Shown here piece after piece: positions 16,502-57,030 of a stretch of 64,000 bases of DNA. Numbering within the stretch: position 1 is the stretch's first letter; each line of letters starts with the position of its first letter. The translations under genes were made by a program, and so were the position numbers. The stretch is taken from the NCBI RefSeq assembly GCF_006345805.1, contig NC_043003.1:1-64000 (forward strand). Reading direction: 5' to 3'. Under the pieces are notes generated by a model. That model was not told the origin of the DNA. It saw only the letters and a program-made list of their open reading frames with translations, and made no database searches. The stretch comes from Octopus sinensis. Taxonomy: Eukaryota.

Positions 16502-16788
16502 TCCCTTCTTGGAAAACATAAAGGGGTCTTTTGGCAGTGAAGACAAATATAAGTAGTCTCCCTTACTCTAATGGATTGTCAGCGCAAGGTGGCAATCCTG
16601 CAGCAGAAACCGTGAGATTATTCTGCCTACTCACGTGGTTTTTCTGCTTTGTAATCTAGCAGAATTAGTAATTTATCTTTTCATTTTCTTTCTTTTTTTC
16701 TTTAACGGTATCGAACCGGTGGCAGAATGTTCGAACTCCATTTGGTGGATCTTGTGCTTCGCACTGGTGTCTGAGGTGTGTTGTTGGG

Positions 16789-18002: not shown

Positions 18003-18655
18003 CCTTGACACCTTTGGTGTTGGGTGGATGTGGGCTCTGTTGCGTCTCGGCTGCCTACCAGATTCCGTTTCTATTATATACGATCTTGGATTTTCAGCTC
18101 TACTGACAACCTGTGCTGGGATCCATGTTTTAGTTACGGGATCTTGAGTATGCACATGTTGTCCTCCAAGTATCTCAGGTAAATATTGTGCATGTTTGTT
18201 GTAATATTTCTGTGATTGTTCTTGAGTGGCAGCTAGCTTTGCCCTTGTCTCTTCCTGGTCAATAGGAGGTTGGATCTTACTTGGCAGGGTAGTTTTGTAC
18301 TTCCTGCCATTCAGCAATTCTGCAGGGGATTTCATATCAGCTCTCAGTGGTGTCGCTCGTAGGGACAGAAGTGCCAGGCGTGGGTCTTCCTTAGTCTCTC
18401 GGCATTTGACTAGTGTTCTCTTCACTGTCTGCACCTGTCTTTCTATAAATCCATGACCTTTGGGGTAGTGTGGAGATGAGGTTGTAATATTGAACCCATA
18501 CTCATCGGCTAGCTTTTTGAATTCTTGCGATGTGAACTGGGTTCCGTTGTCACATATGATCTGCTCTGGTATTCCTTGCTCTGCTAGAAGTCCTCGAGCC
18601 ACTGTAGTGATTGTTTTGGCTCTCAGGTCCTTCACTTTTCTCACAAATGGAATTT
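17244..18655 (-). pseudogene. Gypsy integrase core and tail, frameshifted from pol
   Basis: GIPEQIICDNGTQF, SSPHYPKGHGFIERQVQTVK, SPAELLNGR, PRSYII; joined to the upstream ..YYSKF by a frameshift at ~18650. Confidence 0.88.
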
Positions 18656-20566: not shown

Positions 20567-20569
20567 CCA

Positions 20570-28276: not shown

Positions 28277-29796
28277 CTACCTGTATATCCCGTCGTTGCC
28301 AGGTAATTTTCACACTAAAAGGCCTTGGTGGACTTTCGGAATAGCACCCTCACTTAAGTTGGATTTTCTCCGTATTGACGGGAAGTTTTCAATTCTTTCC
28401 CCCACCAAACCCTTACAAATGATGGGGAGAAGCTTTTTATGAAAAACAATTTTTTAAAATTGATAAATCTCCCCTTTCCCTACATTCCAGACTGATTTTG
28501 TCCATTTTTTTTTGTACGATTCTCATTACAATCAACACTTTATTTTGAAACAGAAAACGAAACGTAATTTAAAATCAATAGTAAAATTTTTTTAAAAATT
28601 CATCACACACCCCTCCCCCCTCCCCAAATCCTAAAATTTTGGGGTTTTTTCGAAATTTTTAAATCATAGTTTTAAAATACGGTCAGTCCGAATCTGCAAT
28701 TTTTTCTGTTGATAAGTTCAAAATAATTTTCAGACGAAAAGGCGTGTGATTTAAGGGAGATTTAGCTGTTGTTTCTTGCACATATCACGATCATATGGTA
28801 CCTTCCTCATTTCTTTGTCACGTGCCATGATGTTTTTAAATATCCGACCCCCCCCCATAAACACAGTTTATGGAATGATGATGTGGTCCATTGATGGGAT
28901 TTAAGCAACAAGAAAAATATTGTAACTTAAATTTTTAATCCCCCACCCCACATCGAACGAGTCCCTTTATATGTGTAAAAAAAACATATTTACTACAGAA
29001 AAGTATGCTATTAAATTAAATTATCTTTTACATATCTTCTTAAAATCACCGTCGCCATAATGAAATTCTATACACACATGCACACACATATTGACAAACA
29101 CACACACACACATAGAGACTCAGCGTGAGCTATATACTTTTAGAGGGAGGGAGAGAGAGAGAGAGGGGGGAGGGAGAGAGAGAATAGTAAATATATGTAG
29201 AGAGAGTTGAAACGCTTACCATCAGATCCCCCCCCTCCCGAAAAAAAAAATGAAAGCGATAAACAAATAGGAAGATCTTTTTTGTTGCTGTCACAGATTT
29301 TGAAATTTTAAAATTAAATGAAATATTTCACATTTAGTATGATGTCCTTTTTGATGCTGAATCAGAATTTGTGATTAATTTATTCCAGATAAATTTTAGA
29401 AAAATGCTACAGAGATTTAAAGTTTAATTATTTTAATCCAATCAGAAATTCGGAATTGTACCTGACAGCTGCCACGAAATGAAAGTAAACATTAGAAGAC
29501 GAAGTTTTAAACAAAATGAAAGCAATGTGAGAGAGATAGTTTATATAAACAGAGACGGGATAATTAATAATACAGAGAGGTAGAATGACGGTGATAGAGA
29601 GTGGGAAGTTGTCGATCTAAAAGTTAAGTTATTTCTCGCAGCAAACTATATTTTTTCTTATTACTTCCAGACAGCATTCTCTCTGGGATGCAGATTTCGA
29701 AAATGAAATTCGTTTTTCTCGGGTATGCATGGTTTCAGATCCTTTCGGGGTTAAACACACATACATAACCGCATACACTTTCATTTATATAGAAGA
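28277..29796 (-). mobile_element. putative older non-autonomous Helitron
   Basis: - strand begins TCTTCTATATAAATG and ends CCTGGCAACGACGGG..GTAG|T, resembling the termini of the 12497 family. Confidence 0.5.
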
Positions 29797-29797
29797 A

Positions 29798-30193
29798 CTA
29801 GCAGTGTCGCCCGGCGTTGCTCGGGTTTGTAAGGGAAATAACTATATAAGCATTTTTAGAGTTATAGCCAAAAAGTAGCAAAAAAAATGCATTAAAAATG
29901 GAAAAAAAATGATGGTAAATTTTTTTTTAAATCGTTGACTCATCGTAGACATTTTTAGAGAGTTACTTCCCTTATATAATAGCGAAAAAATGCATTAAAA
30001 TGGAAAAAATGATGGTAAATTTTTTTTTAAATCGTAGACTCATCGTAGACGCGCGCTAATACCCAGAAGGGCTCGATATGAATCACGACTATAAGATACC
30101 CGGTTTTGGTTAAACTGCACCGCAAAATGTGGGAGTAGTTAGGAATCTAAATCGTAGGAGACAGACACACAACCTTACTTTTATATATAAAGA
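29798..30193 (-). mobile_element. non-autonomous Helitron monomer (same family as 12497-13915)
   Basis: Near-identical to the array units; TC...CTAG termini. Confidence 0.88.
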
Positions 30194-38225: not shown

Positions 38226-38553
38226 TATCTACATTATTTACATTTAATGGATATTTGTCCTCATCTTGTTTGTTGTTAACACGTTTCGGCTGATATACTC
38301 TCCAGCCTTCATCAGTTGTCTTGGGGAAATTTTGAACCTGGGTTCTCATTCCTAAGGTATTTTACGATGTTATTCAGGTCACTGCCTGGAATCAAACTCA
38401 GAATCTTGGGGTTAGCAGCCTGCGCTCTTAACCACTATGCCATATGCCCTCGGGCATGCAGAGGGTATATCAGCCAAAACATGTTAACAACAAACATGAG
38501 GACAAATATCCGTCAAATGTAAATAATTCTTCATCTCTTAAATATAGAACTAT
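38226..38553 (-). mobile_element. Penelope-associated tRNA-head plus hammerhead unit with inverted partial copy
   Basis: tRNA-like 38375-38449, CTGATGA at 38309-38315, GAAA at 38284-38287; inverted partial copy at 38460-38553. Confidence 0.7.
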
Positions 38554-38583
38554 ACAATATCTATTTCTTGTGTACACACATTG

Positions 38584-38880
38584 ATGTCTGACTTAGAATT
38601 GTCCGGTTTTTCATCAAGTGACTTGGACAAAATTGCTGAAGAATGGTCAGATACTGAAACTTTAGTGAGCGTTGTTGGCCCAAAATAACCTTTAGGACTT
38701 GATGTGAAACCTGTTCAGATTTTTTAAAACTGTTTTCATTGAATTTTAATTGGTCTGATCACCAATAAAAAATTTTTATGCACAACAGATAGAAGCAGGA
38801 AACTTCGCTCCTACATGTATTGAGGAAATTTATGCACACCTAGGTATATATTCTATCTGATGAAAGTAAACAGTTTACCT
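38584..38880 (+). mobile_element. piggyBac-like transposase N-terminal remnant
   Basis: MSDLELSGFSSSDLD..WSD, GP..LGLDVKPVQIF, FYAQQ and PTCIEEIYAHLGIYI resemble the PGBD N-terminus; stops and frameshifts. Confidence 0.55.
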
Positions 38881-39374
38881 GTAAATTTCATGAGGAATGA
38901 ACTGCAAAAAGATTAAGGGATGGGAAATCATTCATATTTTTCTTTTTGTTTGTGATCATCTATTTTCACTATTCCCAATGTCCCAACTCATCTTCGCAAT
39001 CGCCTCTCTCTGTCTTACTCTCCAGCTCACTCTCCTTGGTTTTCAAACTGGAGTATACACGCATCTGTTCTACTGATATCTGCCCCCTCTATACCTTAAA
39101 TCTCTCAACTGGTATAAATCCACACTCCCTCAATACTGCTCCCCACTTGCAGTTGAGGGGTTTTTGTCTTGCAAGGTACTTGGTGACTGTTGATGCCATG
39201 CAAAAAGCAGTACATTCTACAAAGTCGTTGGTATTAGGAAGGGCATCCAGCTGTAGAGACCCTGCCAAAACAGACAATGGAACCTGAGATGTCACTCTTG
39301 GCCTTGCCAGCTCCTCTTAAACTGTCCAACCCATGCCAGCATGAAAAATGGACATTGAATAATAATTATGATAC

Positions 39375-40091
39375 AGTTCTCTATTTAAGAGATGAGGAAT
39401 TATGTACATTATTTACATTTGACCTCATCTTATTTGTTAACACATTTCAGCTGATATACCCTCCAGCCTTCATCAGGTGTCTTGAAGAAATTTCGAACCT
39501 AGGTTCTCATTCCTAAGGTATTTTTCAATGTTATTATTATTATTATTATTATTATTCAGGTCACTGCTTGGAATCAAACTCAGAATCTTGGGGTTAGTAA
39601 CCCACGCTTTTAACCACTATGCCATATGCCTGAGGGCAATTATGGAGTGAATTTTTATGGCTTATAAATCTAATATTTTCCTATCCTTCCTTAATACCAG
39701 TTCCCATATGCTGCTCATATCTGCACTCGGTCTGCTTAGGAGGTTGTTGTGTTCTAGCGTATGTGCTGCCTCTTTTAGTTTTTGCATTTTCCAGTGGTGT
39801 TCTCTGTCTATTATTTTAACTTCATCCCAAAGGAGGAGGTGGTCTCCATTTTTCCATACATGGTCAGCTATATCTGATTTTTCGATATCTCCTCGTGTCA
39901 CAGCTTTGCGATGTTCCTCTACACTTATTTTGAGAGGGGCGGCATGTTTCACCTTTGTATAACCTACCACAACTGCATGGGATGGAAATTTCCCCAAGAC
40001 ACCTGATGAAGGCTGGAGGGTATATCAGCCAAAATGTTGTGTTAGCAACAAACAAGATGAGGACAAATATCTGTCAAATGTAAATAATGTA
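39375..40091 (-). mobile_element. Penelope-like element 3' fragment: GIY-YIG endonuclease remnant, pseudo-LTR and inverted pseudo-LTR
   Basis: SIPCSCGRLYKGETCRP / LKISVEEHRKAV..SDIADH..WDEVKII..KLKEA (39662-39990); tRNA-like 39557-39631; hammerhead ~39440-39480; inverted copy at 39985-40091. Confidence 0.82.
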
Positions 40092-41099
40092 ATGTTGATG
40101 TGTCCATGTCTATTACTAATTGTATTTATTACTAGGATTTTATTACTTTTCTTTGTGTGTGTGTGTCTGTGTTGTTTTAGGTTTGCAATCAGACTGGAGT
40201 CTGGTGCAGCCTTCCAGCTTACCAGCTCCAGTCAAACCGCCCATTGTCCATGCTGGCATGGACAATGGACGTTAAATGATGATGATGAATTGATTGCCAC
40301 ATGTGCCAACCATTAGTGCTGACGAGCTGGCAGAACTTTTAGCACACTGGACACAATGCTCGTCAGCAGCATTTCTTTTGACTCTTAAGTTCTGAGTTCC
40401 AATTCTACCAAAGTTTCATTTGTCTTTCATCTTTTCGGGCCTTGTGCTTACAGTAGAAAGGATTATTTGCAGCACAAATAACTGCTTAAAAAAATTATCG
40501 TCTATTAAAAGTTAAACTTATCATCATTCAACCATTTCGATACCAACCCGACTGAAACCACCTCTGGCTCTGTAGTACAAATGTCTTGTTTTCATAAGTT
40601 CTGAATTAAAATCTTCCACCAAACCTAAGTCACAATTTATGTTCCTAACACTAGCTTAATGATAATGAAGTTATTTTACTAAATTCTTTGTTATATTTAA
40701 AATTAATTGAAAGAAACTCACAGCATTTCAATAAATATGGTAACAAAAGGAGTTAATGGCTGTTTTTCATGCTGGCATGTGTTGGACAGCTTGATGAACT
40801 GACAGGGCCAGGGGCCACACTAAGTTCCATAGTCTGTTTGGGCTTGGTTTCTACAGCTGAATGCCCTTCCTCAACAACTTTTTGGGTGCTCTTTACATGG
40901 CACCCCCCCACATCAATGCTTTTTTATGTAGAACCTTGGTTTTGGGATATCAGTTCTGTTGTGGTGGGTGGCTCCCCTTGTCTATAGCAATGTGCAGCAT
41001 ATCTCGGTTCTCTGTCATCTCCTTACAAAGGAGATGACAGCATTTTGAGAATAGCCTTTACTTTAAAATAATAACTTGATAATTTAACCCCCCTTCCCT

Positions 41100-41364
41100 C
41101 CCCGACCGGCTCCTGTGCCGGTAGCACGTAAAAAACACCATCCGAATGTGGCCGATGCCAGTGCCACCTGACTGGCTCCCATGCCAATAGCACGTAAAAA
41201 GCACCAACTACACATGCAGAGTGGTTGGCGTTAGGAAGGGCATCCAGCTGTAGAAACATTGCCAGATCAGATTGGAACCTGGTGCAACCTCCTGGCTTGC
41301 CAGTCTCCAGTCAAACTGTCAACCCATGCTAGCATGGAAAACGGATGTTAACGATGATGATGAT
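41100..41364 (+). mobile_element. RTE 3'-tail fragment
   Basis: Matches 2390-2644; (GAT)n end. Confidence 0.8.
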
Positions 41365-41891
41365 TTTTTTTTATTTTAAGAAAATGCTAGTGTGAAGCTA
41401 TAAAACTGAATCTAAAAAGGAAGTATATTCTATGTAATAATAAAAAAGAAATAACTTTAAAGGTTGCTGGGAATATTCCCAATCCACCTGCAGATGGATT
41501 CCACGATATTCATATTAAAGTACAGCCACATTTATCAGTTTCTCATTCCCTTTTCTTTTTTACAAATCTCAAAAACAATTTCAGTAGTTTCATATTGTGT
41601 TCTTGAGGCTGCGTACACTTTGAACAGTTGATGAATCTGAAATGTCAACTTCCTTGATTGCAATTAACTTGAGACTGCCTCTAGTTTCACGATACAAATT
41701 CTTTCATTTTTTATTGTTGATTTTTAAATTAAAATATTTCCTAATAAATTTAGTTAATTTCAGACACCAGCTTATTAATTAAAAATTTTTATGAGATACC
41801 ACCAAATATTTTTTCAATTAAAACATGTGATTGTCATTAGACATGTAGTATCTGACATAATGCTAATTTATTTTTTCTGTTTTTGTTACAG

Positions 41892-42869
41892 ATCAAGTTG
41901 ATGAAGAAGAGATGGAAGTTGAGAAAGATGCTGATGCAAATGGTAACAGCAAATCAGATCAAGATACACAGGAAACATCAAGGGAAGAAAAACCCCCTAA
42001 ATTATCAGAGAAAAGTGGCAGTGATAGTGTAATTAGTAACATTAAAAAGGATGATGACAGAGATGTAACGAGTTCAGAGACTGAAATTGCTGAAAAGAAG
42101 GTGACTATTAAAGTGGAAGAAAGAAGTGAAAACACAAGCTCCCATGGGGATACTGATATTTGTTCTTCAGCTGACATAACGAAGAAAGCTGATATAAATG
42201 GAAAGAAGCAAATGCAAGAAGCTGTGAAGGATTTTGAGGGTAAGAAACGCAGAGAGAACATTTTGAAGTCAGGGGATGAGATTTGTGAACAAAAGAGACC
42301 ACGTATTCTTGATGCCCAAAAAGTTGAACATTCAAATACGAGTGACAATGAAGAAGGGAAGGAGGATATGGCTGCTGCTGCTGAAAGCCCTAAAGCTGAT
42401 GATACAGAGATGAAGATGGAGGATGTAGAGAAAGGAAGTAATAAAAAAGTAAAGACCGAGAGTGATGATAATGAAAATTCTATGGAAGTTGATGAACCAA
42501 GTGTTGCAGGAATAATAAAAGAAGAGGATGAGAGTGGCTGCAGAGGTTTAGATCAGAAAATTACTGTGAAACAAGAAGTTAGGAATGTAAAAGAGGAGAT
42601 TACAGCATCGAAAGAAGAGGTTGGTACAATGAAAGAAGGGAAGAATGGTATCAAAGAAGAAATAGATATGAGTAGTTTTAAGAAACAATTAAAAGAGGAA
42701 GATGTGAAAGATATAAAGCTTGTGAATGGGATCAAGAAACCAGAAACCATCTACAAACTGAGCTTTGATGCTGAAAAATTTATTTCAAATCAAATTTCCA
42801 AAATGGATCTTGACCAGACAAATTTGCAAAAACTTAATGGAATGAACTGTCAAGTGAAAGCCACAGAAA
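41892..42869 (+). CDS. SETDB1: SETDB1-like exon: long acidic/charged N-terminal region
   Basis: Polypyrimidine-TTACAG acceptor, 978 nt open, donor GTAAGT, phase 1-1; splices in frame to the Tudor-encoding exons. Confidence 0.8.
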
Positions 42870-45086
42870 GTAAGTTGCTTTGTTTTTTTATGTTATATGA
42901 GGAATTAGGTTGAGTGTGGTTGCTGAATATATGAGTATTGCTCTTAAAAATATCGCATTTCATTGGGTCTGTGGTACAGAGTTAAAGGAATGATTTTTAA
43001 CTCCTCATAAAGTCTAGTTTCTTCTCTTCATATGTTTATTTCCCAGAATAAGATGATTTGGTGAGGTTGTTTGGATGCTAGCGATTTGGCATGGCTGACT
43101 GTATGTAGAACCTGTTTTGGGAAATGTATCTTTTGGCATTAGAGGCAGAAATGCACACATGAATATTTACATACAGTGAGAGAGATGGGGGGAGTGACAT
43201 AACAATTTATTAAGTGAACACGGGTGACATAAATGTTTTTCCTTTCCTCATATACATAAATGGGAAGGGGGAGAGAGAGAGAGAGAAAGACAACATATGC
43301 AAACATAGCTAGGTGCTTATGCACATAAAAAAGGAGAGAAACATCACAATTTATTCATTGAACATGACTCACATAAACACTTTCCTTCTCCTCAGATGCA
43401 CAAAAAGAAATATGCTGACACACATAAACAGAGAGGGAGAGAAAGTCCAATGTCAAATAAGTCAGCATTGAATCAGCAGCACCAAAACATCTCTTCCCCA
43501 TTATTCCTTGTTATCAACTGCTGGAGGAATTGAGAAATGACATCAATGTTGGCAGGCATCAAATATAGTGTCTAGATTTACTAAAAATAACCCAAATTTG
43601 TAATTACTAAATTATTTGAGGCTTTCAATCAAGCAGCACTATATTGTTCTGCAATCATTTCGTCTTTCTATCAGCTACATCCACTTGAGAATTAGTTATT
43701 TTTATTGTATTATAATCTTAGGCCAGGTCAGTTGAAAAGTTCTGTATTCTGACAGTGAAATTACCTGTGGTAGAACAACCTCATCATTTAAGGTCCATGT
43801 TCCTTGTTGGTGTGGGTTGGATGCTTTTACAGAATCTGATGGGCCCAAGGATCGCATTATGCTCCAGTGTCTGTTTTGGCATGCTTTCCATGATTGCCAG
43901 CCACTTTATAGCTTGTACTGGGTGCATTTTTTTCGTTGTTTGTGCAACTGGTGCTAGTGAGGTTATTATGCAGCTCACAAGACTATGAAACCTGATGTGA
44001 AGGGGCAACTTTATGTTAGGGGATGAGGGTCAAGAGATGAAAAAAAGGAGGTGAGGTAAAGCAGGTTCTTGTAGAGGAGCTACTTGCATTTAGAAGGGAG
44101 AGAATGAATCAGTTGTAGCTGCAAGCAAGTGAATAATAGTGATGATGTGTCCAGGTTGCCAGCCCTCAAGGTTAAAGATGAGAAGAAGTGGGTGGGGACA
44201 AAAAAAAAATAAGGAGTATGAGTGTATTTCTCAAACTACCCAATTAAGGACTTTCAGAATCTGGGTTGTGGTTTGTGAAATTAGAAAATTAAAAAAATTG
44301 AAAATACTGTTAGTAGAATTTGTGGAAAATTTCTGAGGGAATTGCAATGGAACTAGTTGTACCATGACTCTCAGAATGTCACTGGAAACTCCAAGGACGG
44401 CAATATGCCCTACCACAGACCCCCATCTAGCCCTTCTGTCTGGATAGAAAAAAATGCTTACTAAAAGAGCATTGATGATGAGTTTTCAATGAAACTAACT
44501 GAAAACTGATTGCACTTCCATGTGTTGATTTAGTTCTAAGTACTCAAGCATTCGTTTCAGATATTTTACTCTTCAGCTTTTAAACTGGCCATATCTTGCC
44601 TGAATATTCTACTTGTTTTATGTTCAAAGATGCCAGATCCCATCTCTCACACCAACCCTACAATGTCCTTCTAGAAATAAGCTATCATTACTGGGGTTGA
44701 TCTAATTGTCTAGATCAGGCTTATTTCAACACTGTAGAACCTGCCCATTTAAGAAGACCTGTTGAGGCAAGTGAAATCGCTGTTGTGGCCGATGACAGTA
44801 CCACCTGATTGGCACCTGTGCCAGTGGAACATTAAAAGCACCATTTGAGTGTGATTGTTACCAGGGCAGCTGACTGGCTCCCATGCTAGTGGCATGTAAA
44901 AAGCACCATTTGAGTGTGGCTGATGCCAGTACCGCCTGACTGGCCCATGTGCCAGTGGCTCATAAGAAGCAGATGTTGAACGATGATAATGCTAGACTTC
45001 TTTTTCTGCAGTTAAAGAAAAAAAAAAAGAAAAAATCCTTTTGCTGCGGCATCAGTAACATAGATAATGTTTACTTTTAATTTCAG

Positions 45087-45174
45087 GAAAACAGAGAGAA
45101 ATTAGCAAAATATTTTCTGATTGTACTAACCTCTTAGCCAAATTCCGTGCTACACTGGAAGCAACTGAAGCCAT
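45087..45174 (+). CDS. SETDB1: SETDB1-like exon (RKQREISKIFSDCTNLLAKFRATLEATEA)
   Basis: TTTCAG / GTAAGT, phase 1-2. Confidence 0.82.
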
Positions 45175-45317
45175 GTAAGTAGTCTCTTTTAATGTGTTTT
45201 AGATGATGATAAGTATCTACAATAAAGAGTTGCCAGTACCAAGCAAGTCTTGAAGCTGAACATGAAAGTAATTCAGTCTTGTCCCCATTACATATCTTAT
45301 CTGTATTCAAAGTCTGT

Positions 45318-45602
45318 CAGTGGTTCTCAACTGAGGTCCGCATGACCCCTGGGAGTCCATGCTAGCAAAAGAGTACATTGGGGATCAATGGTAGTATTTT
45401 AAGTTTTGATTCAAGTGTATGTGTTGCAAGAAACAGGTTTCTTGCTCTGATGTTTTACATTGTTGAACCTCTGCAAGTGAATGTGTGAAAACAAAATAAG
45501 AATTTTAGAACTAGTTTTTAAACATTGAATGACTTTGGGTTTCCACCAGAATAAAGTAATAATCAAAGGGGTCCAGAGATAAAAAATGGTTGAGAACCGC
45601 TA
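45318..45602. mobile_element. hAT-type MITE
   Basis: TIR CAGTGGTTCTCAAC / GTTGAGAACCGCT; TSD not clear. Confidence 0.6.
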
Positions 45603-45881
45603 GTGTGCACTTGCTGGAAATAGCAACCAAGTCTCTTTCCTTCTTTATTTCCTTTGTCCCTTTCCTTCTTTTCTTTATTTCTTTCTTTCTAGTTTTGTTT
45701 TGTCTCCTTTTTTCTCCTTTTTTTTGTTTTCTCTCTTTCTCAACTTTTTATTAGTTTAAGAAGAAATAAAATAGTTTTTTTTCTTCTTTCTTCTCCCATT
45801 GATGATCAAAGAATAATTTTTCCTTTCTCTACTGTTATGAGTTTCTGGTGATTTTGTTTTCACATCACTTCGTTCTTACAG

Positions 45882-46010
45882 AGAATCTGAGGAGAAAGTT
45901 GGCGGCAATGTGGAAACGGTAGAAATCAGTGACGATGATGAAGTGGAATTCATTGAAACAACTTTTGAACCTGACCTTGTTGCGAACCGACCACATCAGC
46001 AGTCAGCAAC
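45882..46010 (+). CDS. SETDB1: SETDB1-like exon with SUMO-interacting motif (VETVEISDDDEVEFIE)
   Basis: TTACAG / GTAAGT, phase 2-2; resembles the vertebrate SETDB1 IIEIPDEDDDVLSI segment. Confidence 0.85.
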
Positions 46011-47442
46011 GTAAGTTTATTGATTACATATCATACTGAAGTTTTCTAAAAAGAATGAAATAGTACTATACATAATTTACAAACTTTGTTGATACAAAAA
46101 AAATAAATGGCTGGTGTTAGGAAGGGCATCCAGCTGTAAAAACTGTGCGAAAACAGACACAGAAGTCTGGCGCAAGCTCTTGCCTATCCAGTTCCTGTCA
46201 AACCATCCAACCCATACCAGCGTGGAAGGTGGACGACGACTACGACGATGATGATGATGATGATGATGATGAACTCCTTTGCATTTCTTGATTTCGAATT
46301 CAAATTTGAATTACAGAATTGCCCACATCAATTAATCAGATTGGTCTTTCACCAGCTGAAATATCTCATCATCTGTTCATGCCACAATGTCGGATGATAG
46401 CAGTAATTTGTTAACTGAACTGGTTGATCCTAGCCATTGACAGTTTCTTGTCTCTTCATCTGTTTAGCATTTAGTGATGTTTGCCATTGACTCAATAAGT
46501 TTGTCTGCTGAAATAATTCATGTCCACCATTCTGCATCTGATGATTTCAGGGAAATCCTGGTTTGGGTGCTTACCAGGTGGTTGGCCTTCACTGCATATA
46601 TTAATTATTTATTTTTTAGTCGACAACAAATAATGTAGATAAGGTATTGGGCTCTTGATCATAAGGTTGTGTGTTCACTTCTTGGACCACATGACACATT
46701 GTATTCTTGAGCAAGGTACTTTATTTTACGTTGCTGTTGTCTTTTCAGCCAAGAATTGAGTTCTAACGGAATGCTGGTGCATTGTTCCTGTGGCTATTCA
46801 CACAATCTGTTGGGTTATCTCCCTTGCCTTGCATCTTTGTAATACCAGGAAGCTAAGTGGAAAAGGTGCTGGATGCATTGAATGAGAAAGGAAAGGGCTG
46901 CGATGAATAACTTCAATGCTTTTTATGTGGCATTTTGGTTTTACAATCTCAATTTTGTTGTGTTGGACAGGTTTTCTTGAGTACAGCAATGCACCACATA
47001 TCTTGGTTGTCTGTCATCTCCTTTGGGCTTGGCATTTTCAAATTGGCCTTCAATACTTTCACTCCATGTCCTCCTGGGTCTCCCTCTTCCCCAACTTCTC
47101 TCCACTTTATGCAAGTGTCCTCACCCATGTGCCAGTGGCACGTAAAAAGCACCAACCAAATGTGGTCGATGCCAATACCCCTGACTGGCCCCTGTGCCAG
47201 TGGCAGGTAAAATGCACTATCAGAACATGATCGATGCCAGGCCCACCTGACTGTCTCCTGTGCCAGTGGCAGGTAAAAAGCACCCACTACAATCTCGGAG
47301 TGGTTGGCGTTAGGAAGGGCATCCAGCTGTAGAAATATCAGATTAGATTGGAGCTTGGTGCAGCCGCTGGCTCTCCAGACCTCAGTCAAACTGTCCAAGC
47401 CATGCCAGCATGGAAAACGGACGTTAAACGATGATGATGATG

Positions 47443-47475
<33 letters not shown>

Positions 47476-48247
47476 CATACATACAGGGATTGTATTGACT
47501 CGAATGGAAAAATGTGTCACTCAAGAAGGACTTTCAACAATTTTCATGATGTTTCATATTTCAAATGCTTTTATTCAATTCATTCAGTTGTTAAACATAA
47601 ATAAACATTGGAATTAAATGGTTTTGATTTACTGTCAGGTGGTTTCTGGCCAACCCTGTATATGTATTGTTTATGATGTAGTACGAAGAAACCTGCCCAA
47701 AGTAATTGGCCTGAAAGTGTGTACAGGTCTGCTCTTGGTTACTTTAGGTGAAATAAAACAGACTACATAACTCAAACCCAACAACAGAACAGCTTGCTCG
47801 TGAAATTAACATGCAAGTGGCTGAGCACTCCACAGACACGTGTACCCTTAATGTAGTTCTCGGGGAGATTCAGCGTGACACTGACTGTGACAAGGTTGGC
47901 CCTTTGAAATACAGGTACAACAGAAACAGGAAGAAAGAGTGAGAGGAAGTTGTGGTAGAAGAGTGCTGCAGTGTTTGCCACCAGCCCCTGCTGGAGCCTC
48001 GTGGAGCTTTGGGTGTTTTTGCTCAATAAACATTCACAATTCCTAGTTTGGGAATCGAAACTGCGAGTCCGCTGCCCCAAACACTGGGCCATTGCGCATC
48101 CACACAGCCCATGCATAACCTGACTCTTGTATCGATCTTACACCTGTTAGTCTATGTCTGTCTTCCCTTTTATGCATATGTTACGCATGTCCGCTTGATA
48201 ACAAGTAATGATGTTTCTTGATCACGGTCTTAATATTTTTATCACAG

Positions 48248-48332
48248 AAATCCTTCCATGACCAATGCTTCCAACATGGACTCACTGAGAGCAGCACTAA
48301 CAGAAGCACTGAACAAACAGATGCCTTCTCAG
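48248..48332 (+). CDS. SETDB1: SETDB1-like exon (NPSMTNASNMDSLRAALTEALNKQMPSQ)
   Basis: TCACAG / GTAGGT, phase 2-0. Confidence 0.78.
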
Positions 48333-49966
48333 GTAGGTTTTGTCTTGAAATTTTTCTTTTACATCAGACTCTCAAGAGGTGCAGCAGTACATGGGAATCA
48401 AAAGGTGTGTGGCCTAGTGGTCAGTGTTTGCACTTGTGATCGCAAGACTGGTTTCAACTCCCAGACTGGGTGATTCATTGTGTATCTGAATAAAACACTT
48501 TATTCCACATTCATTCAATCCACTCATCTGTAAATGAGTAAATCTGTTACCAACTGGCAGAAATATGGGATCCTTGCCCCTTGCATGCTGAAGGAATAGT
48601 GTGAGTGACTCTGAGTCTTAGGGACACAACAATAATACCGAGGGGTTGGTGATGATGATATACATTGGATCCAAGCAAGCAGTGCCTCTGTTGAAATATT
48701 CCTCATACCCCCTAAATACTACTCCCTTTCTCTCAGTTGAGGGGTGTTTTGTCTTGCAAGGTACTTGGTGACCCTGTCATTGATTGTGCCACATAAAAAG
48801 CGCTCAGTATACTCTGTAAAGTGGTTGATGTTAGGAAGGACATTCAGCAGTAGAAATCCATCCCAAACCGACAATGGAATCTCGTGCAGCTCCTAGCCAA
48901 CTCTCCTAACCCATGCCAGCATGGTAAATAAATCTCGAATGATGATGGCTAGACATCATGTGATGGCTATAAATGAACATTGTTGTCATACAAGTGATAT
49001 TGTTCATTTGCAGTCTTCCAGGTTTTTACTTGTCTAGCTCGGAAACAAGTGAGGGCTGACAACAGAAAGGGTGTCCAGCTCTAGAAAATTTGCTTCAGCA
49101 AATTCTGTTTGACTCATGTAAGCATATGATCCAGTAAAGCACATTTGTGGGGCTTTCATAAATTAATTATAAGCATGGGTGCTTTTTACAAGGCACCATC
49201 ACCTGTGCTTTTTATGTGGCACCTGCCCAGGTGCTTTTTATGTGGCAGTGTGGTTAAAAAGTTTACTTCACAACTATTTTGGAGGAATCTCATTTCAGCC
49301 ACTTGTGTTTGCAATTGTACTCTTTTTGTCATTTCCCAAGCTTTTCTGGCTTACAGTAATTAAAATTCCAATGTAATTAGTTTGTAGTGGAAATATATAG
49401 TCAGAACAAGGTGTTGATGTGGCTGTGTGTATGTTATTACAAATAGCTCATAATGAGATGAAGAATAAATTCAAGACCTATATATTTACCACATAAAAAT
49501 ATATTTTATTTACTGGTCAATGATGATACATAGAACTGATATGTAGAATCTAGTTGAATGAAGTAATCTATGCAAGAAAGTTCAGAGATAAAAAATGTAG
49601 AAATAATAGCTAAGTGATGGTTTTCAGTCATGTGTCATAGAGAAAGAGACAGGCAGAGCAAAGACTTGAATGGCTCAGAGTCTAGTCGATTGAGAAGCGA
49701 AAAACTGGGTTAGCAAGCTGTTTTTATTAATGAAATGCTAGACATTCTAGAAACTTCTAAGAGAAACGCTAAGCTTCTTGAAAATGTGTGTCATGAGAAT
49801 CAAATCTCATGACACACATGCTTCAAGAAACTTAGAGAAGGGAGGTTACTCTATAATCTTTCTTGCAAGGGAGATCATTCAACTATTTTGCTACGTAGAC
49901 CACTACAAGTTGATATGTCATTGAAACTTTGTTGTTTTGTTTCATTGATAATTTTATTTTTGCCAG

Positions 49967-50013
49967 GTCAATCAGTCTTTACACAAACCATTCTCAGACG
50001 AGGACCGTAAACT
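49967..50013 (+). CDS. SETDB1: SETDB1-like 47-nt exon (VNQSLHKPFSDEDRK)
   Basis: TGCCAG / GTAAGT, phase 0-2; needed to keep the frame. Confidence 0.78.
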
Positions 50014-51670
50014 GTAAGTATCGGTCTATCTTTCTTTATCTCTTCTTCAGTTTCTATCTCTACACCTTTCTCTCTCTCTCTCTCTTTTTCTCAAGAGAGT
50101 GATAGCTTCTTAGCATAAGCTTGACTCTTAAACGGTAGACATATGCAAGCAGGCCGATGTTACACTATTATAGAGCAACCATTAACCTGTATCAACAGGG
50201 GTGTCCTGTATCGTCTGTGTTTCGGTATGTCAGGTCTTCTCACAAGACTCTTTGTGTGGCATTGTTGAACCATTCCAATCCCAGAACTACCAGAACGATT
50301 CACAAAACTGGTGAGGCATTCTTCAGATGGATTTCAGATTTAAATTTGAAGGAGAGTGTGACTCCTTGTTTTGACACCAGGCAACTGATATTTGCTCATT
50401 TTCTGTCTTCTGTGAAAAACATGTCTAGTTATGGGAAAATATTACTTTGCTTGAAAGCAGGCGAGGGTTGGTGACAGGAAGGCCATCCAGCCGTAGAAAA
50501 TCTGCCTCAGTAAACTCTGTCCAACTGATGCAAGCATGGGAAAGTGGACATTAAAACGATGATGATGTGATATTGTATAAAAGAACAACCTTATGGTTGT
50601 TGTGGTTGAATGGAGTGTTGTGAGTGATTGAAAATCCCCCGGATCCAGGTGTGGTTATGTGGGGGCTGCAGGTATTTTATTGGTGGTGGTGGTGGTGGTG
50701 GGGGGACAAGCATGACTGTGGTTCAGTTTGCTTCACAGCCATTTAGTTTTTGTGTGTGTCCACTACTGGCATCTTGGACAAGTATCTCCTTCCATCCTTT
50801 TGATCAATACCTTGTTAGTGAAAGTTGTTGGACTGAAACTGCAGATGCACGTCGTGTGTGTGAGTGAAGAAAAAAGATAAGATGCTTCCTCTGAAGAAAA
50901 CTGCTACCTTGTGTGGGTTTTCTTCTGTTCGAGTTGCACAGGCAGTCTCTTGTCACTCACCCCATTATAAATACAGTGAACCAGGGATTTACGCATTATC
51001 AATGACATTGTTATTCACAAGATGAGACATAAAATAATTGTTTCTAATTTTAGCATAAGGCCAGTAATTTTGAGGGGAGGGGGCATGTTGATTACATCGA
51101 CCCAAGTTCTTGACTGATACTTTGTTTTATCTTTCTGTAAAGGACGATAGGTGCAAGTGTGGCTGTGTGTTAAGATACTTGCTTTCTGACCATATGGTTC
51201 TGGGTTCAGTCCCCCATGTGGCACCTTGGGCAGGTGTCTTCTGCTATAACCTCTGGCTGACCAAAGCCTTATGACTGGATTTGGTAGATGGAGACTGAAA
51301 GGAGTCCATCATGCATATGTGAGTTCCTCCCCTACTGCTTGACCACCAGTGTTGGCATGTTTACGTCTCCCCTATCGTAGCAGTTCACCAAAAGCAACCA
51401 ATCGAATGAGTACCAGGCTTTAAAAAAAAAGAAAAAGTTGCGGGTTGATTCATTCAACTAAACATTCTTCAAGGCTGTGCCCCAGCATGGTCGCAGTCTA
51501 ATGCCTGAAACTGGTAAAAGATAAGGAAAAGGATGAAAAGAAATACTACCAGTTAAGTACCAATGCCTGCTGGGAAAAGATTTCACTGGTTTGGGATGGT
51601 AGAGATTGTTTCTTTGATTAGTCCTGGAACCAGCTGGATTGATTTCAGTTAATTTAATAATTAATCAGTG

Positions 51671-52297
51671 AAGGTGGTGAGCTGGAAGAAACGGTAGCAT
51701 GTCAGGTGAAATGCTTAGTGGTATTTCGTCTGTCTTTATGTTCTGAGTTCAAATTCCACCGAGATCGACTTTGCCTTTCATCCTTTTGGGGTTGATAAAT
51801 TGAGTACCAGCTGCATACTGAGATCAATTTAATCGACTGACCCCCTTCCCCAAAATTTCGGGCCTTGTGCCTAGAGTAGAAAAGAATATCTAGGTCTCTG
51901 TAAGGCGGTGAGCTGGCAGAAACGTTAGCATGCCTGGTGAGATGCTTGGCAGTATTTCGTCCACCTTTGCATTTGAAGTTCAAATTCTGCTGAGGTCGAC
52001 TTTGCCATTCATCCTATTGGGGTCGATAAATTAAGTACCAGTTGAGTACTGGGGATCGATCTAATTGACTGCCCCCCCCCATATCATAATTTCGAGCCTT
52101 GTACCTAAAGTAGAAAAGATTATTAAAAGGAGGCAAGCTGGCAGAATCGTTAGCACGCTGGGCGAAATGTTTAGCGGTATTTCATCTATCTTTATGTTTT
52201 GAGTTCAAATTCCACTGGAATTTGCCTACTGGAGTTGATCTAATCGACTGCGCCTTCCCCCAAAATTTTAGGCCCTGTGCCTAGAATAGAAAAGAAT
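51671..52297 (+). mobile_element. three tandem copies of a tRNA-derived SINE (family C)
   Basis: AAGGCGGTGAGCTGGCAGAA..GTTAG..GAGTTCAAATTC..TCATCCTTT.GGGGTCGATAAA at ~230-bp period; dispersed copies at ~30420-30545(-), 34090-34300, 40320-40460, 61445-61860(-) and 63761-63978. Confidence 0.8.
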
Positions 52298-52682
52298 ATT
52301 TAATCAGTGGCTTGTTGGAGAAAACCTACCATTTGACCAAAGGGCAGCTGAAATTTGGACCAGTTAGTAAACTAGGAATTGTTTACATAAAAGGTTTGCT
52401 GTTGTACCTGAGTGCCATTTCAGTAGTTTGGATTTGGTAGACAGAAATTGTGTGTGTAGGTTACCGTCCCATTGCTTTGACATTGTGTGATAGCTATAAT
52501 ATTCTGTGACAACATGTCTCGTCATGAGGAAATAACTTACTTGAAAATAGGTGAGGGTTAGCAACAGGAAGGCCATCTGCTGTAGAGAAATCCATCTCAG
52601 CAAATTCTGCCTTACCTTGGAAAAGTGAACCTAAAAATAATATTACATTTTATTCTGCTTTTTTTTTAAATTTTTGTTTCAG

Positions 52683-52779
52683 GTTTGATATCAGTGTTGG
52701 CAGTAAGGTACTTGCTAAAAAGTTGAATGATATCTGGTATAAAGGTATTGTTCAGGAAGTAAGCCAAAAAGAACGATCG
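52683..52779 (+). CDS. SETDB1: SETDB1-like exon, Tudor domain 1 N-half (FDISVGSKVLAKKLNDIWYKGIVQEV)
   Basis: TTTCAG / GTAAGT, phase 2-0; aligns with SETDB1 [21 protein letters not shown]. Confidence 0.9.
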
Positions 52780-52864
52780 GTAAGTCAAATCTAATTTGAC
52801 GAGTGTCTGAAGAAATGTATTTCTGCAGAGAATGATTTTGTGAATTCTTTGTCCTTTTACTTAA

Positions 52865-53071
52865 CCCTTTAGCATTCAGCTTTCTCTGTCAAATGTGATG
52901 CTCATTTATTCCACCTTGTTTTGAATTAACAATGCATTAACTTCTTACTCTGAGATTTTGATGGTGCGATTGCTTATTTTAAGAATAACATTAAAGCATA
53001 GGTGTGAGGGGCCAGAATCTAATTGATTTAGAATATTTTGGCCAGATTTGGCCGATTGAAATGCTAAAGGG
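52865..53071. mobile_element. piggyBac-type MITE
   Basis: TTAA|CCCTTTAGCATT ... AATGCTAAAGGG|TTAA; relatives at 59961-60134 and ~40530-40756. Confidence 0.8.
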
Positions 53072-54664
53072 TTAAATAATGTACATTGTAATCCTTTGTG
53101 TGTGTGTATGTGTGTGCATGGCCATTATTTTCCTGAATTCATCTCTTTTGATGTTACACACATGATCTGCTGTAACTTCTGCCATATATTGTTATAAATT
53201 CTCAAGTCTTTGAATTACCAGTTTTAATTTCTAAGACTGGAATGTCTTTAGAAAGAAGGCAGAAAATTTAAGATATAAGCTTTGCATGGCTGTGTGGTAA
53301 GAAGCTCACATGGTTCTGTGTTCAGTCCCACTGTGTGGCACCTTGGGCAAGTGTCTTCTACTATAACCTTGGGCCAACTAAAGCAGTTTGAGTGGATTTG
53401 GTAAATGGAAACTAAAAGAAACCCATCATGTGTGTGTGTGTGTGTGTGTATAGAGGTATCTATGTGTGTGTGTGTCTGTGTTTGTCCCTCACCTTGACAA
53501 CTGGTGTTGGTGTGTCTATATCCCTGTAACTTAGCAGTTTGGCAAAAAAGACTGATAAAATAAGTACCAGGCTTTAAAAAAAAAGCAATTAGTGTGGTTG
53601 ATTCAGCTAAAATTTCCTCAAGGTGGTGCCCCAGCATGGCCACAGTCTGACCGAAACAAGTAAAAGATAGTTTCTCCTGAATAAGTTTCATTATTTTAGC
53701 CTTGATTTTAACTGGAAAAATTGGGTGTGACTTCTACATGGAGCAAAACAAAAACTATGAAAGGAATAAAAAAGTTTGCACCCTGATTTAACCCTAAATT
53801 TAAGGGTACAACGTGTGTATTAGCCAATAGGGTAATTGTTGTTCTTAGTTTAAAATGTCATTTTGTTCTCTAATGTATTAAATGCTACAGTGTATCTTTT
53901 TATTCCGCTGTGTAGAGTAAAATATCTTCTTTGATGATGTTGATGGTTGACTTGCTAACCTTGTGCTCTGCACCTATCAGAACGCTTCTGTTTACTTATC
54001 AGCTTATTGTATTGTGGGTTATCCTTATCATCAGTTTAACATGCAATGAGGCAGACCTGCATATTCATCTCTCTCTCTCTCTCTCTTTCGTACCTCCACC
54101 CTCCATCTCTCTTACAATTTTAGTAATGAAATCTAACTTCTTCAGACCAACTGAATCTCCTTTCATTGGCCATTCTTCTTTATCTGTCTTTTCCAGTAAC
54201 CATTTGGTCCACTCTTTCATATCATTTTATGTTTCAGTATGTGCAGCATGTGTGGTTAAGAAACCTGCTTGCCAACCTTGTGGTTTTTAGTCCACTCCCA
54301 CTGTGTGGCATTCTGAACAAGTGTCTGTCACTATAGCTCTGGGCTGACCAAAACCTTGTGAGTGGGTTTGGTAGAAACAGAAAGAAGCCTGTCGTGTATG
54401 TGTGTACGTGTTTGTATGTGCCCTTGTCTAGATATCACATGATGGTTGCCAAGAAGCATCATAGTCACACGAGCAAGATTGTTTTGTTTTCCAATCTTCT
54501 GTGAAAAATGTCTGGCCATGGAGAAAATAATTACCTTGTTTGGAAATAGGTGAAGGAAGAACATTTTGTTGTAGAAAATCTGTCTCAACAAATTGCATCT
54601 GCCCTCTGCAAGCATGGGAAAGTGGATGTTAAAAAGATGATAATAAGCATAAATTGTTTTACAT

Positions 54665-55035
54665 AGGTGCAGAAGTGGCTGTGTGGTAAGTTGCTTGCTT
54701 ACCAACCACATGGTTCCAGGTTCAGTTCCACTGCATGGCAGCTTGGGCAAGTGTCTTTTACTATAGCCTCGGGCCAACCAAAGCTTTGTGAGTGGATGTG
54801 GTAGATGGAAACTGAACGAAGCTAATCGTGTCTACATGTGTGTGTGTGTGTGTGTGTCTGTGTTTGTCCCCCTACCATCGCTTGACAACTGATGTTAACA
54901 TGTTTATGTCTCCATAACTTAGTGGTTCGGCAAAAAACTCCAATAAAATAAGTACTAGGCTTACAAAGAATAAGTCCCGGTGTTGATTTGTTTAACTAAT
55001 GGTGGTGCTCCAGCATGGCAGACAAGCAAAAGAGT
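54665..55035 (+). mobile_element. tRNA-derived SINE (family B)
   Basis: GGTGCAGAAGTGGCTGTGTGGTAAG..GGTTCAGTTCC head and shared body. Confidence 0.8.
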
Positions 55036-55739
55036 ATGAGCATAAATTGTTTTACATAACTGGCGCACTGTCAGTTACGATGACGAAGGTTCCAGTTGAT
55101 CCGATCAACGGAACAGCCTGCTCATGAAATTAAAATGCAAGTGGCTGAGTACTCCACAGACACCTGTGTACCCTTAACATAGTTTTCAGGGAGATTCAGC
55201 ATGACACAGAATGTAACAATTATGGCCCTTTGAAATAAAGTCACTTGTTGAAGGACACAAACTCTCCTCACTATATAATCAGGAGCTGAATGCCCTAACC
55301 GCTAAATCACACCTTCACTGTTTTACAAGCATCATCATCATCATTGTTAACATCCGCTTTCCATGCTGGCATGGGTTGGACAGTTTGACTGAAGACTCCT
55401 AAGCCGGGAGGCTGTACCTAGCTCCAATCTGATTTGGCAAAGTTTCTACAGCTGGATGACCTTTCTAATACCAACCACTCTGAGAGTGCAGTGGGTGCTT
55501 TTTTACAGGCCACCGGTACGGGAGCCAGTCAGGTGGCACTGGCCTTGGCCATGCTTGAATGGTGCTCTTTATGTGTCACTGACATCAGCCAGGCTCAATG
55601 GTACTTTTTATGTGCCACCAGCATTGGTGCTAGTCAGGCGGCACTTGCAGTAGAATTATAAAACAATAATGGGGAAATAGACTAACTAATCAGAATTTAG
55701 CTGCTGCATTATAATCTTATTGCTGTCTTTTGTTTTCAG

Positions 55740-55851
55740 AAAAAGTTTAAAATAAAATTTGATGGGAAAGGCACTAAAGTTCTTGGTGCTAAACTTGTTG
55801 CCTTTTTTGAGAACTGGAACATACCTATCAAAGTTGGTAGCAGAGTAGTTG
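55740..55851 (+). CDS. SETDB1: SETDB1-like exon, Tudor 1 C-half (KKFKIKFDGKGTKVLGAKLVAF..IKVGSRVV)
   Basis: TTTCAG / GTGAGT, phase 0-1; matches SETDB1 [30 protein letters not shown]. No further exon recognised before the window end. Confidence 0.92.
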
Positions 55852-56609
55852 GTGAGTATCTTTTTTTTTAATTTGGTTTACATTTAATTTTGTGGTAATA
55901 TTAACTTTTTCTTATTTAACAAGCCACTGAAGGCCTGCGGACTCCGTATCCAATAACTTGCTCTGCCGCATCTTTGGTAAACCAATCTTATTAGAATAGT
56001 TGATTTTTTTGCAAACTAGTACCACGAGGAAGCTTGTTCACCCTAATAGGTAGGAGAGGCAATGATAACTTCAGGAAATTTGTGGCATGTAAATTCTCAC
56101 ACGGGCTACTGTTCTTATGGTTAGAAAATGGAAGGAATAAGTCCCAATTCCTAATTATCTAAAAAGAAAAAAGAAAAGAAAAAAGAGAGGAATCTATTTT
56201 ATGGGGCTTCCTTAGGTTAAGCTAAAGATTCATAGTTCCTTATCTTTTTGAGATTAATCTAGACAGATTGCAGACATGATAGTTGCTGTTTGAAATTTGA
56301 AGAATTTAGCAATTACCTTGAGGTAACCTGGTGGTATAACCATAATATGCTAAGAAGTCCCTTACCCTCTCTAATTGTTGCAATCTATTCACACCTTTTA
56401 ATTAAACTACAATTACCTGACCTACTTCATCGCTTGCAGCTTTGTTTTTCCTGTCTTTGCTTAAAGCACCTGTCCTTGTCTTTCTCATTTCTCACCTTTT
56501 CTATTTTGTCTTGCTTGCATTACTTACTAATAAATTACTCAATAATTTGTGCCTCAATTTTTCTTGGGTTCTGTTTGTTTTTATAATCTCCAACATCATT
56601 CCTGTGCAC

Positions 56610-57030
56610 TTCTGTATTTAAGAGATGAGGAATTATATACATTATTTACATTCGACGGATATTTGTCCTCATCTTGTTTGTTGTTTACACAATGTTTCAG
56701 CTGATATACCCTCCAGCCTTCATCAGGTGTCTTGAGGAAATTTCGAACCTGGGTTCTCATTCCTAAGGTATTTTTTGATGTTGTTGTTCTTCAGGTCAGT
56801 GCTTGGAATCGAACTTGGAATCTTGGGGTTAGTAGCCTGCATTCTTAACCACTACGCCATATGCCCTGAACAACAACAATAATAATAATATTGAAAAATA
56901 CTTTAGGAATAAGAACCCAGGTTCGAAATTTCCCCAAGCCACATGAAGAAGGCTGGAGGGTACATCAGCCGAAACGTTGTGTGAGCAACAAACAAGATGA
57001 GGACAAATATCCATCGAATGTAAATAATCA
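56610..57030 (-). mobile_element. Penelope-associated tRNA-head plus hammerhead unit with inverted copy
   Basis: - strand tRNA-like 56792-56866, hammerhead 56687-56730; + strand inverted copy with hammerhead at 56939-56982. Confidence 0.75.

What the first reader, a model, noticed from the sequence alone, without database searches (positions are those of the whole stretch)
38226..57030. tRNA-headed hammerhead unit tied to a Penelope element: a candidate Pol III-driven, self-cleaving retrozyme/SINE family
Seen: three loci (38226-38553, 39375-40091, 56610-57030) share one unit. It consists of a 75-nt tRNA-like head (GGGCATATGGCRTAGTGGTTAAG..GGCTRCTAACC..AGTTYGATTCC..TGACCTG, with A and B boxes), an (AAT/AAC)n spacer, ~45 nt, and a hammerhead with consensus acac CTGATGA a ggctg-loop-cagcc GAAA cg TT gtgt. 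At 39375-39990 the unit directly follows the stop codon of a GIY-YIG endonuclease remnant; the other two loci have no coding sequence. Known: Penelope pseudo-LTRs carry minimal type-I hammerheads with a palindromic stem III (here AACGUU) thought to act as dimers, and schistosome Sm-alpha repeats pair a tRNA-like promoter with a hammerhead. Inference: this Penelope lineage captured a Pol III promoter inside its pseudo-LTR, giving a small RNA that could be transcribed, self-processed and mobilised by the Penelope RT/EN, unlike typical LINE-dependent SINEs. Each copy here has at least one damaging change, several consistent with CpG decay.
Basis: partly seen in the sequence, partly recalled or inferred. 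Interest (0 to 1): 0.8.

Follow-up and report, generated by a model that had tools for sequence, protein, structure and literature searches.

The report
Penelope element with built-in tRNA promoter
This is the end repeat of an abundant Penelope jumping gene in which most copies begin at a tRNA-derived sequence, so the element likely uses the cell's small-RNA polymerase (Pol III) to make its copying template, while its hammerhead ribozyme is the ordinary Penelope kind and the copies run intact across its cut site.

Summary
The unit is real and genome-wide (roughly 20,000 arms), but it is not a separate SINE or retrozyme. It is the pseudo-LTR of one Penelope-like family: ORF stop, 30 nt, a tRNA-Arg-like head with A and B boxes, (AAT)n, then the ORF's own ATG overlapping a minimal hammerhead, ending at two 3' ends 30-40 nt apart. 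The head is fixed (20 of 20 ORF-end copies). 23 of 30 position-ordered heads stop within about 8 nt upstream of tRNA G1, against about 3% expected from truncation, and junctions place the template's 5' end near G(-6), 13 nt before the A box. Short and ORF-linked copies share subfamily variants. The 2.6-kb sense strand has no shared TTTT, whereas 9 of 9 LINE families have some. Best reading: a captured Pol III promoter starts the template RNA, so the pLTR spreads like a SINE. 'Self-processed' is not supported: cleavage would remove the head, and head-bearing copies span the cut site. Pol III use is inferred; RNA-seq showed only passive read-through.

The parts
38377..38449 (-). Locus 1 tRNA-Arg-like head (A box 38432-38442, B box 38388-38399)
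38226..38376 (-). Locus 1 rest of pLTR arm: short AAT spacer, ORF ATG 38347-38349, damaged hammerhead 38275-38319, short 3' end without tail
38450..38553 (+). Locus 1 inverted arm: hairpin junction at the head start, jump into hammerhead stem II, ends with the tail
39375..39558 (-). Locus 2 pLTR arm: (AAT)n, ORF ATG 39508-39510, damaged hammerhead 39436-39480, tail end at 39375
39559..39631 (-). Locus 2 tRNA-Arg-like head (A box 39614-39624, B box 39570-39581)
39632..39661 (-). 30-nt spacer between ORF stop and head; holds the inferred start G(-6)
39662..39985 (-). 5'-truncated 3' end of the Penelope ORF (GIY-YIG region, one frameshift near 39941, stop 39662-39664)
   Evidence: 61% identity to P0002, E 2e-36
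39985..40091 (+). Locus 2 inverted arm: damaged hammerhead 39999-40046, short 3' end
56608..56793 (-). Locus 3 pLTR arm: AAC spacer, ORF ATG 56758-56760, damaged hammerhead 56683-56730, tail end at 56608
56794..56866 (-). Locus 3 tRNA-Arg-like head (A box 56849-56859, B box 56805-56816); copy begins here
56869..57028 (+). Locus 3 inverted arm: AAT run, damaged hammerhead 56940-56986, short 3' end

Best explanation
The unit is the pseudo-LTR of a high-copy Penelope-like retrotransposon that carries a fixed tRNA-Arg-derived head, and this head likely acts as an internal Pol III promoter that starts the RNA which the element's own RT/GIY-YIG protein then copies into new sites. Shown: anatomy, fixed linkage, sharp 5' boundary at about -6 to +1 of the head, shared subfamilies, two 3' ends, inverted arms. 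Inferred: transcription starts near G(-6) of a pLTR that sits upstream of an ORF; RT starts internally at two sites about 120-135 and 163 nt after the ATG (as shown in vitro for anole Poseidon); it reaches the RNA's 5' end after about 270 nt, which gives the abundant SINE-like copies; cDNAs primed from both target strands join into inverted arms; longer RNAs that read through ORF and head give the ORF-linked minority. The hammerhead is the inherited Penelope one and is uncut (or resealed) in the templates of head-bearing copies.
For: Head fixed: 20 of 20 ORF-end loci run into it; 28 of 30 head loci have the hammerhead part in one arm; no head-less pLTR among 30 RT/EN hits, 27 of which run on to the head. 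Pile-up: 23 of 30 position-ordered heads stop within about -8..+1; truncation rate upstream predicts 2.8% (p 3e-30; 4e-11 even at 20%). Calibrated counts fall from about 18,000 head arms to about 2,900 ORF-end arms within 50 nt. Of 66 heads not classed as ORF-linked, 13 are palindromic hairpins and 53 are not (2 of these are misclassed ORF-linked copies); the leader kept is 0-7 nt. Joins of an ORF piece or an A-run straight onto G(-6) in L214, L318, L337, L347, L326. Head aligns to the genome's own tRNA-Arg(ACG), scores 61-74 against shuffle means of about 31 and maxima 43-52, for 6 of 7 gene variants. Three non-CpG variants are shared by both classes (Fisher p 0.74, 0.34, 0.16). No TTTT in two 2.6-kb copies, none in column majorities over 2592 columns, 18 unshared singletons in 44 kb of 30 copies; 9 of 9 LINE families have 0.7-6.7 per kb. 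PMC11167929: internal RT starts, tail, hammerhead overlapping the ORF start, uncut RNA is the substrate.
Against: No direct Pol III evidence. Two RNA-seq runs show equal strands, 69-80% of reads running into unlike flanks and no pile-up of starts at the head; they cannot see capless short RNAs well, but give no support. A sharp start does not name the polymerase. The TTTT deficit is modest under codon-aware nulls (P 0.005 on overlapping pieces; 0.05-0.37 on four non-overlapping tilings; Markov P 0.02-0.07) and rests on one ancestral sequence; no other Penelope family was found as a control. No full-length copy with a 5' pLTR reaching the head was seen. A few columns differ between the classes (p down to 5e-6), probably gaps, CpG decay and pattern-based sampling, not resolved. 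3' ends of 66 ORF-5' pieces do not fall at T runs (3 observed, 5.4 expected).
Confidence: 0.65

Rival explanations
1. The head is a dead SINE or tRNA relic inside the pLTR; the sharp boundary is an ordinary Pol II start of the pLTR promoter that happens to lie at the head.
For: D. virilis Penelope has a LINE-like TATA-less internal promoter (abstract); pLTRs hold the start site. Protein must be made from some RNA, most easily a capped one. RNA-seq gives no Pol III signal.
Against: The start lies 13 nt before an A box with a B box at tRNA spacing, both intact in column majorities. No extra G before GCCCAC at the five clean joins, as a cap often leaves (recalled). No shared TTTT in 2.6 kb.
Confidence: 0.17
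2. No start site at all: RT copying long RNAs stalls or snaps back at the GCCC-AC-GGGC palindrome or at the tRNA-like fold, or RNase P trims the RNA there, so truncations pile up at the head.
For: The palindrome lies exactly at the boundary; 13 hairpin junctions with AC or GT spacers; a sub-peak of ends at G1.
Against: About 51 of 64 short ends do not use the palindrome; A-run and ORF-piece joins land on G(-6); a fold should stall RT at its 3' side, not its 5' end (inference); the head is not called as a tRNA and ends at -6 lie upstream of an RNase P cut.
Confidence: 0.1
3. One reading: an independent small Pol III RNA that cleaves itself (retrozyme/SINE) and is mobilised in trans from its own master copies.
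For: Short copies outnumber ORF-linked ones about 6 to 1. The core is a complete minimal hammerhead, intact in 6 of 30 position-ordered copies. 5' ends are enriched just 3' of the cut site (12 against 4.2 expected, P 0.001), so some RNA may be cleaved.
Against: Cleavage removes the head; head-bearing copies span the site. Variants are shared with ORF-linked copies. Copies are dispersed, tandem pairs are rare (L110/L111). The unit has no terminator or own tail; its 3' half is ORF. The enrichment at the cut site also fits RT stalling at stem I and includes internal deletions.
Confidence: 0.08

Closest known systems
Penelope/Poseidon PLEs with minimal hammerheads (PAc of Anolis, PMC11167929; min-HHRs, PMC4209133)
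   Same: Single ORF with RT then GIY-YIG region; pLTR; inverted 5'-truncated arm; 30-40 nt tail; hammerhead overlapping the ORF start with extra base after A9, G10.1-C11.1 and palindromic 15.2-16.2.
   Different: A tRNA-derived A/B-box head marks the start; described PLE promoters are LINE-like internal promoters. Sense strand lacks TTTT.
TRIMp3: Cassandra, Helenus, Ajax (PMC10886601, passages)
   Same: A small-RNA-gene promoter sits inside the terminal repeat, proposed to come from a SINE insertion.
   Different: Those are non-autonomous LTR elements whose autonomous partners are argued to need Pol II; here the head is in the repeat of the coding element itself, and it is a PLE.
Schistosome Sm-alpha / Sj-alpha repeats (through review PMC6765202, passages; the original paper was not held)
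   Same: Pol III-type promoter followed by a hammerhead.
   Different: Non-coding tandem repeats whose hammerhead frees monomers; here dispersed pLTR copies with ORF sequence and an uncut site.
Non-LTR retrozymes (PMC7229834 passages; bioRxiv 10.64898/2026.07.22.740005 part 1 and passages)
   Same: Type I hammerhead, pLTR-related, PLE-dependent.
   Different: Defined as tandem repeats giving circular RNA; 'tRNA' and 'promoter' do not occur in the preprint's main text.
Octopus tRNA-derived SINEs OK, OR1, OR2 (Ohshima and Okada 1994; title seen in a reference list; names and tRNA-Arg origin recalled)
   Same: tRNA-Arg-type head in a genome whose repeats look octopus-like (recalled, not tested).
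   Different: Sequences could not be compared; the head may come from, or be, one of them.

Membership tests
Penelope-like element (EN+, C-terminal GIY-YIG) | Single ORF with RT followed by a GIY-YIG-type endonuclease | tested here: met
   RVT_1 on L044 piece (E 8e-7, 29.5 bits against cut-off 29.6); homologue P0002 RVT_1 E 1e-11 and 61-63% identical to the C-terminus; GIY-YIG Pfam only weak, in 2 of 7 full-length homologues (E 0.017, 0.001) and not on the window remnant; N-terminus matches P0016 (E 2e-11).
Penelope-like element (EN+, C-terminal GIY-YIG) | pLTR with partial tandems, inverted 5'-truncated arm and 30-40 nt tail | tested here: met
   3' ends cluster near +120-138 and +160-163 from the ATG (the +120 peak is partly a reference artefact); definition from PMC8557442.
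Penelope/Poseidon clade within PLEs | RT phylogeny groups with Penelope/Poseidon, not Neptune or Nematis | not tested
   No tree with named references; assignment rests on layout similarity to PAc and recalled motifs.
Minimal type I hammerhead of PLEs | Core CUGANGA/GAAA, extra base 9-10.1, G10.1-C11.1, palindromic 15.2-16.2, stems I and II | tested here: met
   columns; stems I and II form in the MFE fold of natural copy L101 (-13.0 kcal/mol); criteria from PMC4209133. Rfam models do not hit.
Minimal type I hammerhead of PLEs | Self-cleavage as a dimer | not testable with these tools
   Cofold MFE was a strand-swapped dimer without the stem III duplex; the AACGUU duplex is only -3.5 kcal/mol.
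tRNA-derived SINE | 5' head from a tRNA with A and B boxes | tested here: met
   Only tRNA-Arg(ACG) genes were compared, so the isotype is not tested against others.
tRNA-derived SINE | Transcribed by Pol III | tested here: inconclusive
   Start position and TTTT deficit fit; RNA-seq shows passive reads only.
tRNA-derived SINE | Non-coding family with its own master lineage, separate from the partner element | tested here: not met
   3' half is the partner's ORF start; variants shared; the head is part of the coding element.
Non-LTR retrozyme | Tandem repeats with a hammerhead in each unit | tested here: not met
   Dispersed single or inverted copies; one tandem pair among 30 position-ordered hits; spacing of hits.
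Non-LTR retrozyme | Circular monomer RNA bounded by the cut site | not testable with these tools
   No suitable RNA data; copy ends are set by the head and the RT starts.

The most novel reading that the evidence does not exclude
The whole 2.9-kb protein-coding retrotransposon is a Pol III transcription unit: the tRNA head is its promoter, its coding strand has been purged of TTTT terminators, and the uncapped RNA serves as template and perhaps as mRNA. It would be an autonomous retroelement that is at once its own SINE.
Probability: 0.25. Interest if true: 0.85.

Novelty: new variant of a known kind. Interest (0 to 1): 0.6.

Why it matters
It would add the Penelope class to the elements that captured a Pol III promoter in their terminal repeat, and unlike SINEs and TRIMp3 the promoter sits in the coding element. 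It offers a concrete route from a PLE pseudo-LTR to Sm-alpha-like promoter-plus-hammerhead repeats, and it explains some 20,000 short repeats that annotation would split into 'SINE' and 'Penelope'. The large copy set also maps template 5' ends, RT start sites and arm joining, which tests the still open PLE insertion mechanism. If the full ORF is Pol III-transcribed, it challenges the view (PMC10886601) that autonomous partners must use Pol II.

Tried and rejected
Rfam (window and two good copies) and ARAGORN: no tRNA or hammerhead call. An intron after ATGAGGACA was considered and dropped: the frame is open from an upstream ATG. Search for other Penelope families as controls, by a hammerhead pattern and by a distant protein, returned only this family. 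Pol III termination at T runs for ORF-5' pieces: not seen. Sequencing runs: no RNA holder listed on record; laid raw RNA reads were passive. PDB sequence search gave only weak RT hits. Earlier findings of this scan: none. Literature: ten full-text searches listed no paper on a tRNA-derived promoter in a PLE; Repbase, Dfam, SINEBase, subscription papers and supplements were not seen, so prior naming is possible. PMC108972 and PMC5785218 were not held.
Full report
Observation. The three loci hold the unit on the minus strand as described. Each is an inverted pair: one arm ends with a 30-40 nt tail, the other stops short of it. At locus 2 the head starts 30 nt after the stop of a reading frame that is 61% identical to the C-terminus of an RT protein. 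All window hammerheads are damaged. ARAGORN and Rfam do not call head or hammerhead.

Family. The window's genome G000 (2.72 Gb; the repeats look octopus-like to me, a recalled impression) holds 6731 exact hammerhead 22-mers, 3638 head 22-mers and 572 ORF-end 22-mers, reversed controls 0. Calibrated by how often independently sampled copies match each pattern (64 of 208, 22 of 109, 13 of 67) this is about 22,000, 18,000 and 2,900 arms. Copies are a median 94% identical to column majorities, equally for short and ORF-linked ones. 20 of 24 listed runs, under five organism codes, hold over half of the sampled words. Near-complete copies are 2.6 kb and encode an N-terminal domain, RT and a C-terminal region like that of 750-870 aa homologues with weak GIY-YIG hits. 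The frame opens at an ATG about 35 nt before the hammerhead core and runs through hammerhead and tail into the ORF in 15 of 18 junction copies. So the unit is the pseudo-LTR, and its 3' half is the ORF start, the layout reported for anole Poseidon (PMC11167929, parts 1 and 2 read).

The head. It aligns end to end with the genome's own tRNA-Arg(ACG) genes far above shuffles (no other isotype compared) and keeps A and B boxes at tRNA spacing. It is fixed: 20 of 20 ORF-end loci run into it, some with small deletions, and 28 of 30 head loci have the hammerhead part in one arm; L127 and L151 are head-only.

A sharp 5' boundary. Of the first 30 head matches along contig C1, 23 stop within about -8..+1 of G1 and 7 run upstream. 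The spread of 5' ends in 20 ORF-end copies predicts 2.8% in such a window (p 3e-30). Two hammerhead-anchored, position-ordered samples agree by my reading, about 10 stopping against 4-5 running on in each 30; a score-ordered sample had 0 of 29 reaching the ORF. A palindrome, GCCC-AC-GGGC, lies at the boundary and yields hairpin junctions, but only 13 of 66 short ends are such; the others keep 0-7 nt of leader (two rows misclassed). In five copies an ORF piece or an A-run is joined onto G(-6), which I read as RT jumping from the end of one RNA to another. G(-6) follows a T and lies 13 nt before the A box, as expected of a tRNA-type start (recalled). Head-started arms continue into the ORF for 49-444 nt in seven loci, so the source is a pLTR upstream of an ORF.

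One lineage. Three non-CpG variants define subfamilies (G-T-T 66, A-C-A 22, A-T-T 21 arms) and occur alike in short and ORF-linked copies. Some other columns differ, probably through gaps, CpG decay and sampling; I did not resolve them. One of the three variants is hammerhead position 7, the only free core position.

No terminators. Two 2.6-kb copies have 20 and 25 TTT runs but no TTTT against about 6 expected from composition. In 30 long copies the 18 TTTT runs are all unshared. Nine of nine LINE families from the same assembly have 0.7-6.7 per kb. Codon-aware nulls weaken this (P 0.005 with overlapping pieces, 0.05-0.37 per tiling), and no second Penelope family was found as a control. It is suggestive only.

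The hammerhead. It has the features listed for PLE minimal hammerheads (PMC4209133, parts 1 and 2 read) and is intact in 6 of 30 position-ordered copies. The cut after GUU lies about 180 nt 3' of the head and 70 nt 3' of the ATG, so a cut RNA loses both. Head-bearing copies span the site, and for PAc uncut RNA is the substrate. 5' ends are mildly enriched at 0..+6 of the site (12 against 4.2), which fits some cleavage or stalling at stem I.

RNA. Two 2026 RNA-seq runs (about 6% read) gave thousands of reads, equal on both strands, 69-80% running into unlike flanks, with depth beyond the tail under 1% as in DNA contigs, and no start pile-up at the head. This is read-through of embedded copies; strandedness of the libraries is not known. 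It neither shows nor excludes Pol III RNA.

Comparison. It is a Penelope-like element by every feature tested. It works like a SINE and like TRIMp3 (PMC10886601, passages) but fails SINE membership on independence and retrozyme membership on tandem layout (PMC7229834 passages; bioRxiv 10.64898/2026.07.22.740005 part 1 and passages). Sm-alpha is known to me through a review (PMC6765202 passages). PLE structure and promoter come from PMC8557442 passages and the PMC2377424 abstract. PMC13725137 (abstract) reports cleavage-driven cap-independent translation in viruses; here the cut would remove the first ATG, so I do not lean on it. PMC6962438 and PMC13282606 passages do not mention this link. Ten searches found no report of a tRNA promoter in a PLE; repeat databases were not available.

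Verdict. New variant of a known kind, interest 0.6. Pol III-started templates from the pLTR: 0.65. Whole coding element as a Pol III unit: 0.25.

Noticed in passing
hammerhead cut site, family-wide (e.g. window 38275-38285 and 39436-39446): 43 of 198 arms lack 2-3 nt right at the GUU/GUGUU cut site (13-17% gaps). Could be slippage in a GTT/GTG micro-repeat, a subfamily, or a scar of cleavage and rejoining.
   Followed up: partly
L213-L242, L317-L351: Most copies holding the pLTR-ORF junction are short ORF-5' pieces (30-1100 nt) joined directly to another pLTR arm, often at the head or the AAT run, suggesting frequent template jumping by this RT.
   Followed up: partly
hairpin junctions, e.g. 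L111, L134, L077, window 38450-38451: The 2-nt spacer occurs as AC and as its complement GT (7 and 3 of 13), as expected if two cDNAs anneal at the palindrome and mismatches are repaired either way.
   Followed up: partly
window 16676-20569 (-): Ty3/Gypsy-like pol (RT, RNase H, integrase) whose frame runs into a 15-copy, 99% identical 81-bp tandem array at 16789-18003.
   Followed up: no
window 12491-13915 and 29792-30193: Repeat of 286/384-bp units starting ACTAGCAGT, four tandem copies plus a dispersed one; Helitron- or MITE-like, not classified.
   Followed up: no
window 41867-42910 (+): 348-codon open frame, acidic and Lys/Ser-rich, no Pfam hit; probably a host exon, which would put the copies in or near a gene.
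   Followed up: no
G000:C2:3121910-3162223: Cluster of about 95 tRNA-Arg(ACG) motif matches, mostly at about 206-bp spacing; the genes at its edge were confirmed by ARAGORN.
   Followed up: no
L243-L272 (small unplaced contigs): The best RT hits are near-identical intact LINE ORFs crowded on unplaced contigs: a very young family or DNA of another organism in the assembly. This bears on their use as TTTT controls; three of the nine control families came from large contigs.
   Followed up: no
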